DNA of 64,000 bases from an uncultured Candidatus Saccharibacteria bacterium (GTDB taxonomy: Bacteria; Patescibacteriota; Minisyncoccia; Phycocordibacterales; UBA9973), in the NCBI GenBank assembly GCA_964456475.1, contig CAYVZI010000001.1:11762-75761 (forward strand). Reading direction: 5' to 3'. Under the pieces are notes generated by a model that worked only from the letters and a program-made list of their open reading frames with translations, was not told the origin of the DNA and did no database searches. Position 1 is the first letter of the stretch. Every line of letters starts with the position of its first letter. This document shows, piece by piece, positions 4,542 to 55,916 of the stretch. The translations under genes were made by a program, and so were the position numbers.

Positions 4542-4740
4542 TAAGGTAAATGATGAGGGGGGGGGCACCACTTGATGACAAAGTAGTGTCCTTATTTGTC
4601 TGTGTGGAAAACTATATGGTAATGTCGCACAATATATCTTTCACGACATTATATCCTAATATAATGTGCGTGAAAGATAGCGATTATTTTCCAACGTGAT
4701 TACACATCGGAAAATAATCTTTGGGCCGTAGACCCACACT

Positions 4741-4769
4741 GTCATTCCGGACTTGATACGGAATCCATG
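4741..4769 (+). repeat. hairpin element family GTCATyCCGGA-loop-TCCGGrATCCA, copy A
   Basis: gtcattccggacttgatacggaatccatg. The stem is attccg/cggaat. Confidence 0.7.
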
Positions 4770-4844
4770 AATGTATTCTCCCCTCGATGCCTGCCACAAA
4801 TTTTTTCAAAAAAGTTTTCAAAATTATTTTCTTACAAAAATTGT

Positions 4845-4875
4845 GTCATCCCGGACCCTGATCCGGGATCCATGG
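4845..4875 (+). repeat. hairpin element family, copy B
   Basis: gtcatcccggaccctgatccgggatccatgg. The stem atcccgga/tccgggat shows a compensatory change relative to copy A. Confidence 0.7.
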
Positions 4876-5130
4876 GTATCTGAGTTACATCTATGTGACT
4901 CCTTATATGCCTCTCATATATCAAATGGCCTTAAAACGCATTATACGAGATCAAAAATACGAGTTTAGCATCATTATCGACTTGATCCGATAATCCAGTA
5001 ATTTTCTAGTGTTAAAGCATTTTTTACTAATTAGGGTGAGTTGATGGTAGGTACCGTCAATGCAAGACCTTGAGTATTCTGTAATCAGAAAGCGAACGGT
5101 GTACAGTTCCTGTTAGGAAGTCGACTTCCC

Positions 5131-19706: not shown

Positions 19707-19776
19707 TTACTCAAAATGCACCACCCCTCAATCCCCTCCTTGGTAAAGGAGGGGAAGATATTCGTTTTGTATTTTA

Positions 19777-21076: not shown

Positions 21077-21099
21077 ACTCCTATTATACTATGAATTTT

Positions 21100-21128
21100 G
21101 TCATCCCGGACTTGATCCGGGATCCACA
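21100..21128 (+). repeat. hairpin element family, copy C
   Basis: gtcatcccggacttgatccgggatccac. Confidence 0.7.
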
Positions 21129-21140
21129 TAAATTAATTCT

Positions 21141-21199
21141 TCATGGATTCCGGCTCTGACTCAGCAGAATCACTTCTTGGAAGAAAACACGGAATGACA
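21141..21199 (-). repeat. hairpin element family, inverted copy with a ~38-nt expanded loop
   Basis: catggattccg[gctctgactcagcagaatcacttcttggaagaaaacac]ggaatgac. The arms are the reverse complement of copy A. Confidence 0.55.
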
Positions 21200-43682: not shown

Positions 43683-43710
43683 GGTCATCCTGAACTTGTT
43701 TCAGAATCCA
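43683..43710 (+). repeat. hairpin element family, copy F
   Basis: ggtcatcctgaacttgtttcagaatcca, which closely resembles the GIY-YIG cassette ends. Confidence 0.65.
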
Positions 43711-52965: not shown

Positions 52966-54057
52966 TTACAATCCTTCAGCCTTGAGCGTCTCTATCGCCT
53001 CTTTGGCTTTCTTTGAAAGTTTGTTTGGGATTTTGACTGTCACTTTGACCATCAAGTCTCCTCTTTTTCCGCGTGGATTGGGTACTCCTTTTTCTTTCAC
53101 GCGAAGGATTGTGCCGGATGCGATTCCTTCCGGAATTTCAATCGTGACCGCACCATCCAATGTTTCAATTTTACGATCGGCACCGAGAAGTGCTTCGGAA
53201 AGTTTCACTTCCATATCCATGGTGAGATTTTGTCGATCACGGCGGAATATCGGATGCGATTGTACATTTATTTTTATATACAAATCTCCAGATGTTCCTT
53301 TTCGCACTGCTTCACCGAGTCCAGTCATACGGATCATCTCGCCTGCTTCGATTCCAGCCGGAACACGAATTTCAATTTCTTCTTCCTTGCGTTTTACACC
53401 TGCTCCGTGACAAGAACCACAGAGTTCTGATGGAATTGTTCCCGAGCCATGACATGCGTCACATTCACGCGTTGTAACAAACGATCCAAGCATTGAGCGA
53501 CGAGTCTCTCGAATTTGTCCCTTTCCATTACATTGACTACAGGTGATTTGTTTTGCTCCGGCTTTTGCGCCTGAACCAGTACAGGTATCACAGGTAGAAA
53601 CTTTTGTTATCAAAATTTTACGAACCGTTCCAAAGATACTATCAGCAAAAGGGATCGTAATTTCAGTAGAAATATCACGCCCACGACGTGTTTGTGAGCC
53701 CCCACGAGCCCCACCACCAAAGAAATCAGAGAAGATATCTCCTAGGTCGCCCATGTCAAAACCCTGGCCGTTTTGGAAGCCTGAGAAGTCAAAACCACCC
53801 ATATTGGATGGGTCAAAGCCTTGCCCACCTCCGAATCCACCTTGTGGTCCAGCAGAGCCAAATCGGTCGTATTGAGCGCGTTTAGAGTCGTCAGAAAGCG
53901 TCTGATAAGCCTCGTTTACCTCCTTGAATTTCGCATCATCACCCTTGTTCTTGTCAGGGTGGTATTTATGAGCCATCTTATGAAAGGCCTTTTTAATCTC
54001 CTCTTTTGAGGAAGTTTTTGAAACGCCTAAAATTTCGTAATAGTCTTTATTCGCCAT
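52966..54057 (-). CDS. dnaJ: chaperone DnaJ
   Basis: J domain with HPD, a G/F-rich region, and four CxxCxGxG zinc-finger repeats. Confidence 0.95.
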   Translation of the reverse strand: MANKDYYEILGVSKTSSKEEIKKAFHKMAHKYHPDKNKGDDAKFKEVNEAYQTLSDDSKRAQYDRFGSAGPQGGFGGGQGFDPSNMGGFDFSGFQNGQGFDMGDLGDIFSDFFGGGARGGSQTRRGRDISTEITIPFADSIFGTVRKILITKVSTCDTCTGSGAKAGAKQITCSQCNGKGQIRETRRSMLGSFVTTRECDACHGSGTIPSELCGSCHGAGVKRKEEEIEIRVPAGIEAGEMIRMTGLGEAVRKGTSGDLYIKINVQSHPIFRRDRQNLTMDMEVKLSEALLGADRKIETLDGAVTIEIPEGIASGTILRVKEKGVPNPRGKRGDLMVKVTVKIPNKLSKKAKEAIETLKAEGL

Positions 54058-54124
54058 ACGCCGTGCATAATACTATGAATAATAAAATGCGACAAGAAAT
54101 TGGATGATTCCCCTCACTCGTATT

Positions 54125-54475
54125 GGGTCATCCTGAATTTATTTCAGGATCCAGGGCTATAGACAAATCTTTCCATTCTGGATTATGCTCTTGTATCAAA
54201 TTAATCTTCCAATTTCTATGCCATGCTTTTAATTGTTTTTCGCGTTCAATCGCAGAAATTGGATTTTCAGACTCTTCATAATAAACCAGAGTATTAATTT
54301 TATATTGCTTTGTAAATCCGCCTGCAAGACTATGTTTGTGCTCATATATGCGACGGATTAAATCATTTGTAACACCTATGTATAAAGTGCCGTTCTTTTT
54401 GTTTGCCAAAATATAAACATAATAATGTTTATCGTACATACAAATACTGGATCCTGAAATAAATTCAGGATGACC
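54125..54475. mobile_element. 351-bp cassette with perfect 30-bp terminal inverted repeats enclosing a GIY-YIG nuclease gene
   Basis: Left end gggtcatcctgaatttatttcaggatccag (54125-54154). Right end is its exact reverse complement (54446-54475). Each end is itself an 8-bp-stem hairpin. Confidence 0.6.
54128..54439 (-). CDS. small GIY-YIG nuclease superfamily protein (COG2827-like)
   Basis: MYDKHYYVYILANKKNGTLYIGVTNDLIRRIYEHK...REKQLKAWHRNWKINLI. The ORF-track N- and C-terminal residues are translated from the inverted repeats, so the start was trimmed to MYDK. Confidence 0.75.
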   Translation of the reverse strand: MYDKHYYVYILANKKNGTLYIGVTNDLIRRIYEHKHSLAGGFTKQYKINTLVYYEESENPISAIEREKQLKAWHRNWKINLIQEHNPEWKDLSIALDPEINSG

Positions 54476-54488
54476 CAAACACACATAT

Positions 54489-55916
54489 TTACCCCAATAA
54501 TTCTTTCAAAATTTTTGTAGCGAGAGCTGGGTTTGCAGAACCTTTTGTCTCTTTCATCATCTGACCCACGAGGCTCATGAGTGCATTTTCTTTTCCACCT
54601 TTATATGACTCTGCCGCCTGTGCATTTGTATCGATTATCTTCTGTGCGATTTCTTTGAGTGCACCTTCGTCATTTTTCTGAAGCAAATCTTTTTCGGTAG
54701 CAATTACAATTGGCGAACCATCTTCGACAACAATCATCGCAAGAATATCTTTTGCTGCGCGTGAAGAAATCTTGTTGTCAGCAAAAAGGGTTACCAATTC
54801 GGCAAAGTTTTCTGGGCTCGGCAATCGTATGTCAGAATTCGTCTTTTTCAAACCCACATAATCGGATGTAATATAGTTTGATGCAACTTTTATTTTTTCA
54901 GCATCCTTCAACACACCTGCAACTTTTTCAAACCAAAGCGCAAGTTCATAATCATTGATATACGTTTCGATATCCTCCGCCTTAATGCCATATTCATTCG
55001 CATATCGAGCACGCTTAGCCACAGGAAGCTCTGGCAATTCCTTGCGTAAGGCATTGGTATCAAACATTTCCGAAAGCATAAATTTCGGAATATCTGGATC
55101 AGGGAAATAGCGGTATTCCTGGGCAGATTCTTTTGCACGCTGAGAAAATGTACTCTGTTTGCTGTCATCCCAACCTCGCGTTTCTTTGACAATCTCTCCT
55201 TCTCGTCCAGCTTCGTAAAGCTCAATCATACGAGCGACTTCATAGCGAATCGCCTTCTCCGCGCTCTTAAATGAGTTGATGTTCTTTACTTCGACATAGG
55301 TAGTGAGCTTGCCTTTCTCTGTTGAGACAGACACGTTCACCTCCACACGAAATTCTCCTTTTTCCATGTTTGCATCTCCTGCACCAAGGTACTGAAGAAG
55401 AAGTTGATATTCTTTGGCAAAATTTGCGCCAACATTCGCTGCTTCATCTACAGAATCAAATGTGTGTGGCTCAGTGACAAGCTCCATGAGCGGTACACCA
55501 GCACGGTTGAAGTCAACGAGTGAGTAATCGCCTCGGTCATGCTTACTCGTTGCAGTATCTTCTTCAAGATGAATGCGATGAATCTTCATTCCAGCAAGCT
55601 CTCCACCTGAAACGATAGGATATTTGAATTGGGAAATCTGATACCCCTTTGGAATGTCTGGATAGAAATAACTTTTGCGATCAAATTCGGTAAAATTTGC
55701 AATTGTACCCCCTACAGCAAGCCCCACTCGGATGACTTGCTCCATGGCGCGTTTGTTTGGCACAGGAATAGTGCCTGGATGTGCCATACACACAGGACAG
55801 ATGTTCACATTCGGATTTTTCTCATCCGGGTCGTTCTTACAGCCACAAAACATCTTTGAGTTTGTTTTGAGTTCGGCGTGGATTTCAAGACCGAGAGTTG
55901 GATAATATGTGTTCAT
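54489..55916 (-). CDS. gatB: aspartyl/glutamyl-tRNA(Asn/Gln) amidotransferase subunit B
   Basis: MNTYYPTLGLEIHAEL..CGC plus a GatB/YqeY C-terminus. Confidence 0.95.
   Translation of the reverse strand: MNTYYPTLGLEIHAELKTNSKMFCGCKNDPDEKNPNVNICPVCMAHPGTIPVPNKRAMEQVIRVGLAVGGTIANFTEFDRKSYFYPDIPKGYQISQFKYPIVSGGELAGMKIHRIHLEEDTATSKHDRGDYSLVDFNRAGVPLMELVTEPHTFDSVDEAANVGANFAKEYQLLLQYLGAGDANMEKGEFRVEVNVSVSTEKGKLTTYVEVKNINSFKSAEKAIRYEVARMIELYEAGREGEIVKETRGWDDSKQSTFSQRAKESAQEYRYFPDPDIPKFMLSEMFDTNALRKELPELPVAKRARYANEYGIKAEDIETYINDYELALWFEKVAGVLKDAEKIKVASNYITSDYVGLKKTNSDIRLPSPENFAELVTLFADNKISSRAAKDILAMIVVEDGSPIVIATEKDLLQKNDEGALKEIAQKIIDTNAQAAESYKGGKENALMSLVGQMMKETKGSANPALATKILKELLG

What the first reader, a model, noticed from the sequence alone, without database searches (positions are those of the whole stretch)
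54125..54475. GIY-YIG nuclease mini-cassette bounded by perfect 30-bp hairpin-forming inverted repeats
A 351-bp unit sits between dnaJ and gatB. It has a perfect 30-bp left end, gggtcatcctgaatttatttcaggatccag, and the exact reverse complement as its right end. It encloses only a ~100-aa GIY-YIG nuclease (COG2827-type), and the reading frame runs into both repeats. Each end is itself an 8-bp-stem hairpin that matches the GTCATCC...GGATCCA hairpins scattered elsewhere in the window. This could be the protein-encoding member of a hairpin-MITE family, with a GIY-YIG nuclease in the role played by RAYT-type transposases for REP elements. An association of small GIY-YIG genes with terminal inverted repeats is not something I recognise as described.
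Basis: partly seen in the sequence, partly recalled or inferred. Interest (0 to 1): 0.85.

Follow-up and report, generated by a model that had tools for sequence, protein, structure and literature searches.

The report
Ssn nuclease gene with hairpin repeats
The small GIY-YIG nuclease gene bracketed by perfect hairpin-forming inverted repeats is real, but it belongs to the Ssn family of single-strand DNA nucleases and their cognate hairpin repeats, published in 2025, so it is a new member of a known kind.

Summary
A perfect 32-nt inverted repeat (54123-54154 / 54447-54478) brackets a 103-aa single-domain GIY-YIG gene on the minus strand between gatB and dnaJ. Each arm folds as an 8-bp hairpin of the form GTCAT-stem-loop-stem-ATCCA, and six more such hairpins lie in the window.

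This architecture is published. Chenal et al. 2025 (Nat Commun 16:2388) described the Ssn family: small GIY-YIG proteins that bind these hairpins (NTS/SRM, the "CGTC-tagged REPs" of 2013) only as single-stranded DNA and cut just upstream. Their genes are typically flanked by the hairpins in inverted orientation. That paper already draws the IS-like and REP/RAYT analogy.

In 76 homologous loci from many phyla, 50 show the same inverted flanking arrangement. Such hairpins were rare in shifted control windows.

Modest additions:
- The arms are an A/T-rich variant that the published search motif misses.
- The arms are 30/30 identical between cassettes whose synonymous sites are saturated.
- In close relatives the same gatB-dnaJ spacer holds either this cassette, nothing, or an unrelated small DUF559 nuclease gene with its own inverted hairpin repeats.

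A transposase role for the protein remains unproven.

The parts
54123..54478 (-). Whole cassette: hairpin arm, ssn gene, inverted hairpin arm (356 bp). It sits between the gatB stop (54489) and the dnaJ promoter-like site (54095-54067).
   Evidence: Same-locus relatives: L167 (ssn coding sequence 98% nt identical) and L001 (Ssn 73% aa).
54447..54478 (-). 5' arm. On the coding (minus) strand it reads TTGGGTCATCCTGAATTTATTTCAGGATCCAG. It is an SRM-like hairpin in forward orientation, 7 nt upstream of the ATG.
   Evidence: The arm is identical in L166 and L167.
54128..54439 (-). ssn coding sequence: 103 aa plus a TGA stop, a single-domain GIY-YIG nuclease. Putative catalytic residues are Y9, Y20 and E67. 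The last 8 codons and the stop lie inside the 3' arm.
   Evidence: dN/dS is about 0.08 against L001 and L002.
54123..54154 (+). 3' arm. The same 32-mer read on the plus strand, i.e. an inverted copy of the 5' arm.
4740..4767 (+). Solo family hairpin TGTCATTCCGGACTTGATACGGAATCCA. First of three direct copies in one intergenic region.
4844..4873 (+). Family hairpin TGTCATCCCGGACCCTGATCCGGGATCCAT. It matches the published degenerate SRM motif.
4969..4998 (+). Degenerate family hairpin with an ATC tag instead of GTC: CATCATTATCGACTTGATCCGATAATCCAG.
   Evidence: read directly from the sequence
21099..21127 (+). Family hairpin TGTCATCCCGGACTTGATCCGGGATCCAC, which matches the published SRM motif. Left member of a gene-less inverted pair.
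21144..21199 (-). Inverted partner, GTCATTCCG-(37 nt)-CGGAATCCA, 16 nt from the previous hairpin. Together they form a gene-less head-to-head dimer, the 'empty' version of the cassette architecture.
43683..43710 (+). Solo hairpin GGTCATCCTGAACTTGTTTCAGAATCCA. It belongs to the same CCTGAA sub-type as the cassette arms but has the loop seen in L001 and L002. It lies in a 55-nt intergenic spacer.
54100..54122 (-). Spacer remnant next to the 3' arm (on the minus strand ...AATACGAGTGAGGGGAATCATCCAA). It is homologous to the 3' half of the CCCCTCC...GGAGGGG hairpin that flanks the alternative DUF559 cassette in sister strains.

Best explanation
This is an Ssn/SRM module: a gene for a small single-domain GIY-YIG site-specific single-stranded-DNA endonuclease (Ssn family, Chenal et al. 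2025), placed between two copies of its own recognition hairpin in inverted orientation.

Inferred mechanism, by homology to four purified family members. When DNA is single-stranded (incoming transforming DNA, replication or repair intermediates), the strand carrying GTCAT-stem-loop-stem-ATCCAG folds. The protein binds the hairpin together with its conserved flanking bases and cuts a few nucleotides 5' of it. It does not act on duplex DNA, RNA or the complementary strand. For this cassette the predicted cuts fall roughly at the outer edges of the 32-nt repeat, about 54123/54124 on the plus strand and 54477/54478 on the minus strand.

The other hairpins of the family in the window would be further target sites.

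Shown here:
- the architecture;
- family-wide conservation of that architecture and of hairpin orientation;
- compensatory variation in the stems with invariant GTC, the first two stem pairs (A-T, T-A) nearly invariant, and a mostly CCA tail;
- strong purifying selection on the protein;
- even stronger conservation of the arms;
- presence/absence/replacement polymorphism of the cassette at one site.

Inferred: the enzymatic activity and specificity of this particular protein, and its biological role. That role may be control of recombination with hairpin-bearing single-stranded DNA, and/or spread and maintenance of the hairpins in the manner of REPIN-RAYT systems.
For: Protein:
- GIY-YIG domain, E = 1.3e-16, 103 aa, no second domain.
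- At least 8000 small homologues.
- Y9, Y20 and E67 are invariant. Their spacings (11 and 47) equal those of the mutated catalytic residues Y6, Y17 and E64 of N. meningitidis SsnA.

Hairpins:
- The form is GTCAT + 8-9 bp stem + 3-5 nt loop + ATCCA(G), like the published NTS CGTCATTCCCGCGMAVGCGGGAATCYRG.
- Homologues 53-67% identical to the window protein are flanked by sequences that match that consensus exactly or nearly, e.g. L059, L064 and L009.

Architecture across 76 loci from many phyla:
- forward hairpin within 200 nt upstream in 56;
- reverse hairpin downstream in 60;
- both in 50;
- shifted 210-nt control windows: 3/128 and 5/128;
- best flanking inverted-repeat score >=14 in 45/81 loci against 0/274 controls.

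Stems show 2-5 Watson-Crick pair types at positions 3 and 5-8, while GTC is invariant, pairs 1-2 (A-T, T-A) are nearly so (40/41) and the tail is CCA in 34/41.

Selection: dN/dS is about 0.08. The arms are 30/30 identical between the window and L166, although the coding sequences are 73.5% nt identical with saturated dS and sit in different genomic contexts.

Published biochemistry and genetics of the family.
Against: - The two arms do not match the published degenerate SRM search pattern. Their stem CCTGAA is too A/T-rich and a G precedes GTCAT. They form a variant sub-type whose cleavage has never been tested.
- I could not compare the protein directly with N. meningitidis SsnA (CAX49033.1) or with CDD model cd10448, so family membership rests on indirect links.
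- No activity data exist for any member from this lineage.
- The only demonstrated biological role (modulating transformation) is from Neisseria and may not transfer.
- The cut positions are extrapolated from oligonucleotide lengths given in the paper's text.
Confidence: 0.85

Rival explanations
1. Autonomous transposon (the strong form of the first reader's idea). The hairpin-bounded cassette is an insertion sequence, the GIY-YIG protein is its transposase, and the solo and paired hairpins are non-autonomous derivatives mobilised in trans.
For: - Inverted terminal hairpins with the gene between them.
- Gene-less inverted pairs (window 21099-21199; L148).
- A hairpin pair translated in frame inside a gatB gene (L118).
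- Cassettes with identical arms in different genomic contexts (window versus L166; L002 and P0003).
- Two paralogous cassettes in one metagenome-assembled genome whose similarity starts at the outer edge of the 5' arm (L020/L047).
- Filled, empty and replaced alleles at gatB-dnaJ in strains with 84-89% identical dnaJ.
Against: - No target-site duplication.
- Only one copy in 64 kb.
- Strong purifying selection, and conservation at the same site in a relative with 76% dnaJ nt identity.
- Some homologues lie in long syntenic blocks, e.g. Bradyrhizobium L033/L049. This is the pattern of a domesticated single-copy gene.
- The only recent duplication seen (L059/L075, 98.6% over 517 bp) ends at an unrelated outer 23-nt inverted repeat, not at the hairpins.
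- The empty allele in L163 also lacks adjacent spacer sequence that is present in the window, L001 and L083. It looks like a larger deletion rather than a precise excision.
- From general knowledge, GIY-YIG chemistry has no strand-transfer or rejoining step.
- Published assays show cleavage only.
Confidence: 0.25
2. Homing-type selfish cassette. The nuclease cuts hairpin sites in single-stranded DNA, and recombinational repair from a cassette-bearing copy moves the gene into gene-less hairpin dimers or replaces resident cassettes at hotspots.
For: - Gene-less head-to-head dimers have the same geometry as the cassette without the gene.
- The gatB-dnaJ spacer carries ssn, DUF559 or nothing in close relatives.
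- The two DUF559 alleles are only 54% identical although their dnaJ genes are 86% identical, which implies repeated replacement.
- Both arms of a cassette carry the same loop variant within a genome but differ between genomes, i.e. concerted change.
Against: - The arms offer only about 30 bp of homology.
- No donor-recipient pair was observed.
- Allele exchange could equally be ordinary homologous recombination through the conserved gatB and dnaJ flanks, with no role for the nuclease.
Confidence: 0.15
3. The arms are ordinary regulatory RNA hairpins (terminators or mRNA stabilisers) that happen to flank the gene and have no relation to the protein.
For: - The hairpins are intergenic.
- The 5' arm lies in the likely 5' UTR, with a median of about 14 nt from hairpin to start codon across loci.
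- No promoter-like site was found inside the cassette.
Against: - No T-run follows either arm, and neither was called terminator-like.
- The unpaired flanks are conserved across phyla (GTC invariant, CCA in 34/41) and give each hairpin a strand orientation that is mirrored around the gene.
- Family members bind the hairpin as single-stranded DNA and not as RNA.
- No Rfam family matches.
Confidence: 0.03

Closest known systems
Ssn nucleases with NTS/SRM hairpin repeats (SsnA of Neisseria meningitidis; Chenal et al. 2025, Nat Commun 16:2388, PMC11893778)
   Same: - Single-domain GIY-YIG protein of about 95-105 aa with the same catalytic residue spacing.
- Gene flanked on both sides by oriented hairpins of the form (C/T)GTCAT-stem-loop-stem-ATCC(A/G)G in inverted orientation.
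- The same hairpins are scattered in intergenic regions.
- The IS-like and REP/RAYT analogy is already made by the authors.
   Different: - The arms are an A/T-rich stem variant (ATCCTGAA, 5-nt loop, G before GTCAT) that the published degenerate motif does not match.
- The coding sequence ends inside the 3' hairpin.
- The host is an uncultured bacterium, not a proteobacterial symbiont or pathogen.
- There is no biochemical or genetic evidence for this member.
CGTC-tagged REP repeats (Di Nocera et al. 2013, BMC Genomics 14:522, PMC3733652), which include Neisseria dRS3 and Rickettsia RPE-4/RPE-6
   Same: - 8-9 bp stem beginning with A-T then T-A pairs.
- 4-5 nt loop and an unpaired CCA tail.
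- 5' tag CGTC or TGTC.
- Head-to-head dimers are common.
- Occasional in-frame copies inside genes, as seen here in L118 gatB.
   Different: - That paper concluded these repeats lack a dedicated enzyme. The Ssn gene is that missing partner.
- The window's cassette arms carry GGTC rather than CGTC or TGTC.
REP/REPIN-RAYT systems (IS200/IS605-related Y1 HUH transposases flanked by GTAG-tagged REPs)
   Same: - A single-copy nuclease gene, often syntenic between related genomes, sits between inverted copies of an oriented hairpin repeat that is dispersed in the genome.
- The hairpin is recognised in single-stranded DNA.
- Gene-less inverted dimers exist.
   Different: - The protein fold and chemistry are unrelated: GIY-YIG hydrolysis versus an HUH/tyrosine covalent intermediate.
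- The tag is different (GTC versus GTAG).
- No rejoining activity is known.
GIY-YIG homing endonucleases (I-TevI type)
   Same: The GIY-YIG catalytic domain, and a selfish-looking stand-alone small gene.
   Different: - There is no DNA-binding domain or linker.
- The score against the group I intron endonuclease model is 22.5 bits against a cut-off of 56.
- The gene is not in an intron or a phage.
- Family members cut single-stranded DNA, not duplex DNA.

Membership tests
Ssn nuclease family (cd10448; Chenal et al. 2025) | Small (<150 aa) single-domain GIY-YIG protein | tested here: met
   103 aa. Pfam PF01541, E = 1.3e-16, covers residues 6-80, and there is no other domain.
Ssn nuclease family (cd10448; Chenal et al. 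2025) | Catalytic residues equivalent to Y6, Y17 and E64 of N. meningitidis SsnA | tested here: met
   Y9, Y20 and E67 are invariant in a 34-sequence alignment. The spacings, 11 and 47, are identical to those of the published residues.
Ssn nuclease family (cd10448; Chenal et al. 2025) | BLASTP hit to SsnA (CAX49033.1) with E < 1e-10 and >=75% coverage, and top CDD hit cd10448 | not testable with these tools
   Neither that sequence nor CDD was available. Indirect evidence: the protein is 53-67% identical to proteins whose genes are flanked by sequences matching the Neisseria NTS consensus, e.g. L059 CGTCATTCCCGCGAACGCGGGAATCCAG.
Ssn nuclease family (cd10448; Chenal et al. 2025) | Gene flanked 5' and 3' by oriented hairpin repeats (SRM) | tested here: met
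   A perfect 32-nt inverted repeat in which each arm is a hairpin with a GTCAT tag and a CCA tail. The same arrangement occurs in 50 of 76 homologous loci.
Ssn nuclease family (cd10448; Chenal et al. 2025) | Flanking hairpins match the published degenerate SRM pattern HGTCWYN(0-2)YYVSBRHN(0-5)WNVSBRGN(0-2)RNCYNB | tested here: not met
   Neither arm matches, with or without the leading H. Two other hairpins in the window do match (4844-4873, 21099-21127), against 0.24 expected in shuffles. The pattern is a search tool built from 29 genomes, not a functional definition.
Ssn nuclease family (cd10448; Chenal et al. 2025) | Binds the hairpin only as single-stranded DNA and cuts a few nt upstream, with no activity on duplex DNA or RNA | not testable with these tools
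   This needs purified protein and oligonucleotides.
CGTC-tagged REP superfamily (Di Nocera et al. 2013) | 8-9 bp stem starting with A-T and T-A, a 4-5 nt loop and an unpaired CCA tail | tested here: met
   Arms: ATCCTGAA / 5-nt loop / TTCAGGAT / CCA. Among 41 distinct family hairpins, pairs 1-2 are A-T and T-A in 40 and the tail is CCA in 34.
CGTC-tagged REP superfamily (Di Nocera et al. 2013) | 5' tag CGTC (TGTC or CCTC allowed) | tested here: inconclusive
   The cassette arms and the 43683 copy have GGTC. The other window copies have TGTC. The GTC core is invariant.
CGTC-tagged REP superfamily (Di Nocera et al. 2013) | High copy number in the genome | tested here: inconclusive
   There are 8 copies in 64 kb, well above shuffles, but the rest of the genome was not available.
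REP-associated tyrosine transposases (RAYT, IS200/IS605) | HUH motif and catalytic tyrosine (Y1 transposase fold) | tested here: not met
   The only domain found is GIY-YIG.
GIY-YIG homing endonucleases | Nuclease domain joined to a separate DNA-binding domain, in an intron, intein or phage context | tested here: not met
   The protein is 103 aa with a single domain. TIGR01453 scores 22.5 bits against a cut-off of 56.05. The context is chromosomal and intergenic.
Classical IS/MITE | Terminal inverted repeats plus a target-site duplication | tested here: not met
   Inverted repeats are present, but there are no direct repeats at the boundaries in the window, L001, L002, L166 or L167.

The most novel reading that the evidence does not exclude
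Hairpin-bounded single-domain nuclease cassettes may be a general class of selfish elements that replace one another at hotspots. Under this reading the Ssn cassette here is still mobile through the action of its own nuclease. The DUF559 (Vsr-like PD-(D/E)XK) gene that occupies the same gatB-dnaJ spacer in sister strains, flanked by its own inverted CCCCTCC...GGAGGGG hairpins, would be an undescribed sibling of the Ssn/SRM and RAYT/REP systems.
Probability: 0.3. Interest if true: 0.7.

Novelty: new member of a known kind. Interest (0 to 1): 0.33.

Why it matters
The main finding independently rediscovers a system published in 2025, so its value is mostly confirmatory. Three points go beyond the paper.

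1. Ssn cassettes use A/T-rich hairpin variants that the published search motif does not detect. Published frequencies of flanked genes are therefore probably underestimates, and the range of possible single-strand cleavage specificities is wider.

2. The gatB-dnaJ spacer provides a natural allelic series among close relatives: Ssn cassette, DUF559 cassette, or empty. This makes the open question of whether and how these cassettes move directly testable in population data.

3. The small DUF559 endonuclease genes show the same "nuclease between inverted hairpins" design with a different fold and a different hairpin. No paper in the searched library describes this. It would extend the Ssn concept, and the search for site-specific single-strand nucleases, to a second enzyme family.

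Tried and rejected
- **Rfam.** Searches of the region (E <= 1) and of the whole window (gathering thresholds) found nothing.
- **Solved structures.** A sequence search found no structure for this family. There was only a weak hit to 1ZG2, plus spurious hits to designed repeat proteins.
- **Terminator reading.** Rejected: there are no T-runs and neither arm was called terminator-like.
- **Target-site duplication.** None was found at any of five cassettes.
- **Covariation on a MAFFT alignment.** The hairpin alignment (A4) put stems out of register, so I did not use the count of structure pairs. I tabulated pairs from the outer end instead. That table is descriptive only, because the hairpins were selected for pairing.
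- **Single ancient insertion with one loss.** I first read the locus this way. The dnaJ tree with DUF559-bearing lineages in between makes that too simple, so I leave the history open.
- **The 7-mer ATACGAG.** It lies next to the 3' arm, recurs after the terminal arm in L002 and near the 4969 hairpin, and occurs 11 times in the window against 5.2 expected. Part of it turned out to be remnant spacer shared with L083 and the DUF559 alleles. Whether it is a target motif is unresolved.
- **Unavailable data.** An exact look-up of the window's DnaJ failed. The paper's supplementary files were not held. The taxonomy of the source genome was not established; the contig is 105 kb and comes from NCBI.
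Full report
**1. The observation**

- The repeat finder reports a 32-nt, 100% complementary inverted repeat: arms 54123-54154 and 54447-54478, with 292 nt between them.
- The 30-mer occurs exactly twice in the window, once on each strand, and never in 100 shuffles.
- As single-stranded DNA each arm folds into an 8-bp stem with a 5-nt loop: -7.3 kcal/mol, z about -4.
- Between the arms, on the minus strand, lies one ORF with a GIY-YIG domain (PF01541, E = 1.3e-16).
- The maximal ORF (118 aa, GTG start) enters both arms. All close homologues begin at the ATG at 54439.
- The real product is therefore 103 aa. Its last eight codons (LDPEINSG) and the TGA stop are encoded by the 3' arm.
- gatB (54489-55916) and dnaJ (52966-54057) flank the unit on the same strand.
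- A promoter-like site for dnaJ (54095-54067) lies just outside the cassette and is conserved in relatives.

**2. The hairpin family in the window**

The window holds six further hairpins of the form GTCAT-stem-loop-stem-ATCCA:

- three direct copies at 4740-4998;
- an inverted, gene-less pair at 21099-21199;
- a solo copy at 43683-43710.

All are intergenic. A structural search finds 6, against 0.68 expected in shuffles.

**3. The association is general**

A protein search gave at least 8000 small homologues. Many carry C-terminal tails or N-terminal extensions that are translated hairpins, such as LDPEINSG, GFQPSLE, WIPACAGMT, LDSSLRWNDD and SFPRRRES.

I fetched 80 homologous loci from genomes of many phyla.

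- The best ungapped inverted repeat between the upstream and downstream flanks scored >=14 in 45 of 81 loci, against 0 of 274 shifted controls.
- With an orientation-aware hairpin finder, 56 of 76 loci have a forward hairpin upstream, 60 have a reverse one downstream, and 50 have both. Control windows gave 3/128 and 5/128.
- Stems differ among taxa by compensatory changes (CCCGCG, CCTGCG, CCAGCG, CCCAAA, CCTGAA and others). GTC is invariant, the first two pairs (A-T, T-A) hold in 40 of 41, and the tail is CCA in 34 of 41.

**4. It is already described**

A full-text search for the repeat sequence led to Chenal et al. 2025 (PMC11893778). They define the Neisseria NTS, CGTCATTCCCGCGMAVGCGGGAATCYRG, and a degenerate "Ssn-related motif" (SRM).

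Their main findings:

- Homologues of NMV_0044 (ssnA, a 94-aa single-domain GIY-YIG protein, CDD cd10448) have at least one SRM nearby in 71% of cases and SRMs on both sides in 42%.
- SsnA binds the hairpin only as single-stranded DNA and cuts a few nucleotides upstream. It does not act on duplex DNA, RNA or the reverse strand.
- Y6A, Y17A and E64A mutations abolish cutting.
- Deleting ssnA raises transformation by NTS-bearing DNA about five-fold.
- Their discussion notes that NTS-ssnA-NTS looks like an insertion sequence and compares it with REP/BIME-RAYT systems.

Earlier, Di Nocera et al. 2013 (PMC3733652) catalogued the same hairpins as "CGTC-tagged REPs". These have an 8-9 bp stem starting AT, a 4-5 nt loop and a CCA tail, and include Neisseria dRS3 and Rickettsia RPE-4/6. 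That paper stated that they lack a dedicated transposase.

**5. Membership**

Features that are met:

- The protein's size and single domain.
- The catalytic residue spacing: Y9/Y20/E67 here against Y6/Y17/E64.
- The flanking architecture.

Features that could not be tested or are not met:

- I could not run the paper's own criteria (BLASTP to CAX49033.1, top CDD hit cd10448).
- The published degenerate SRM pattern matches two window hairpins (4844, 21099) but not the two arms. Their stem is A/T-rich and a G precedes GTCAT.

I treat that pattern as a search tool rather than a definition. The same CCTGAA sub-type flanks homologues in L017, L038 and L045. The result does mean that this hairpin sub-type has never been tested biochemically.

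**6. Selection and history at this locus**

*Orthologous and paralogous cassettes*

- L001 (GCA_040384425.1) has the cassette at the same gatB-dnaJ position. Identities are Ssn 73% aa, GatB 88.6% and DnaJ 87.5%. Its arms are 26 nt and 96% complementary, with a different loop (ACTTGTT versus ATTTATT) in both arms.
- dN/dS for ssn is about 0.08 with saturated dS.
- L167 is a near-identical strain with the same cassette.
- L166 carries an Ssn that is 78% identical in a different context, between an integrase-like gene and a methyltransferase. Its arms are 30/30 identical to the window's although dS is saturated.
- L002 and P0003 show two more contexts.

The arms are thus far more constrained than synonymous sites, and similar cassettes sit at unrelated places.

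*Alleles of the gatB-dnaJ spacer*

| State of the spacer | Loci | dnaJ nt identity to window |
|---|---|---|
| ssn cassette | window, L167 | not available (L167 holds no dnaJ; its ssn CDS is 98% nt identical) |
| empty, 47-nt spacer | L163, L164, L165, L168 | 88.7% (L163, L168) |
| 121-123 aa DUF559 endonuclease gene | L169, L171 (L170 retains only its 3' repeat at the contig start; dnaJ identical to L169) | 86-89% |
| ssn cassette (outgroup) | L001 | 75.6% |
| no gene, two CTCC...GGAG hairpins (more distant: GatB 74% aa, DnaJ about 80% aa) | L083 | not in the tree |

The dnaJ tree is (L001,(L169/L170,(L171,(window,(L163,L168))))).

The window's spacer next to the 3' arm keeps the 3' half of the hairpin that flanks the DUF559 alleles. 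The locus has therefore seen cassette replacement and loss. I cannot say whether ssn at this site is one old allele or was gained twice.

**7. Evidence bearing on mobility**

For mobility:

- the different genomic contexts;
- the allelic series above;
- gene-less inverted dimers (window 21099-21199; L148);
- an in-frame hairpin pair inside gatB of L118 with the ORF intact;
- two paralogous cassettes in one metagenome-assembled genome whose similarity begins at the 5' arm's outer edge, with arms 100% identical and genes about 80% identical (L020/L047).

Against an Ssn-catalysed transposon:

- no target-site duplication;
- a single copy in 64 kb;
- long syntenic conservation in Bradyrhizobium (L033/L049);
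- the empty allele looks like a larger deletion;
- the one recent duplication (L059/L075, 98.6% over 517 bp in one genome) ends at an unrelated outer 23-nt perfect inverted repeat, 61 nt outside each hairpin;
- from general knowledge, GIY-YIG chemistry offers no rejoining step.

**8. Verdict**

The feature is real and non-random, and it is an Ssn/SRM module: a new member of a known kind. Interest is modest for the finding itself.

The most interesting by-product is the DUF559 cassette. Its small PD-(D/E)XK endonuclease genes are flanked by inverted CACCACCCC + CCCCTCC-loop-GGAGGGG repeats.

- This arrangement is present in all three loci held from the earlier scans (L145, L169, L171).
- It is also seen in six full-length distant homologues from the viral-contig scan. 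In that analysis, which also included L145, L169 and L171, 8 of 78 loci scored >=14 against 0 of 309 controls.
- It is echoed in hairpin-coded tails of many homologues.
- No paper in the searched library connects DUF559 with such repeats.

Noticed in passing
L171:954-1437; L169:1-430; L145:1985-2490 (the same gatB-dnaJ spacer as window 54058-54488 in sister strains): A different small nuclease gene occupies the same spacer in sister strains: DUF559, a Vsr-like PD-(D/E)XK endonuclease (PF04480, E = 1.6e-31, 121-123 aa). It has its own flanking inverted repeats: hairpin CCCCTCC-loop-GGAGGGG, then GGGGTGGTG, the gene, CACCACCCC, and the hairpin again. The ORF's 3' end runs into the repeat. The L169 and L171 proteins are only 54% identical although their dnaJ genes are 86% identical. 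Many homologues have hairpin-coded tails (PPLTPP, PLLTKE, SPLQGEG, NPSLVRRG). Six full-length distant homologues from the viral-contig scan are flanked by CCCCCTCCGGGGGAGG-type inverted repeats; 8 of the 78 loci analysed (which included L145, L169 and L171) scored >=14 against 0 of 309 controls. I found no paper describing this.
   Followed up: partly
window 19713-19760: A solo copy of the DUF559-type 3' repeat, AAATGCACCACCCCTCAATCCCCTCCTTGGTAAAGGAGGGGAAG. It is nearly identical to the 3' flank of the DUF559 gene in L169. The window has no DUF559 gene.
   Followed up: partly
window 21099-21199: A gene-less inverted pair of family hairpins 16 nt apart, lying between an M23-peptidase-like gene and gltX. 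The second hairpin has a 37-nt insertion in its loop. A similar pair follows gatB in L148 (1690-1762).
   Followed up: partly
L118:1669-1730: An SRM-like inverted hairpin pair lies inside the gatB coding sequence and is translated in frame (...ELSFVTPNLIRGPESGSRVEPGKTTSEL...). The ORF is intact. This resembles Rickettsia palindromic elements inserted in genes.
   Followed up: partly
L059:2868-3385 and L075:2868-3385 (two contigs of one Ca. Desulfacyla euxinica genome): A 517-bp unit, 98.6% identical, sits in two different contexts. An ssn cassette with canonical NTS arms is nested inside an outer perfect 23-nt inverted repeat, GGAGCATTACCAGTTTGTTAAAG. The duplicated unit ends at that outer repeat, not at the hairpins.
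   Followed up: partly
window 54117-54123, 4943-4949, 4957-4963; L002:3527-3533: The 7-mer ATACGAG lies next to several family hairpins and occurs 11 times in the window against 5.2 expected. Part of this is remnant spacer sequence. A role as a target motif is not excluded.
   Followed up: partly
L002:3450-3522: The 3' arm of this ssn cassette is duplicated in tandem 44 nt downstream, both copies perfect.
   Followed up: no
window 1-64000: No Rfam family reaches its gathering score anywhere in the 64 kb, so no tRNA, rRNA or riboswitch was detected. The tRNA finder was not run.
   Followed up: no
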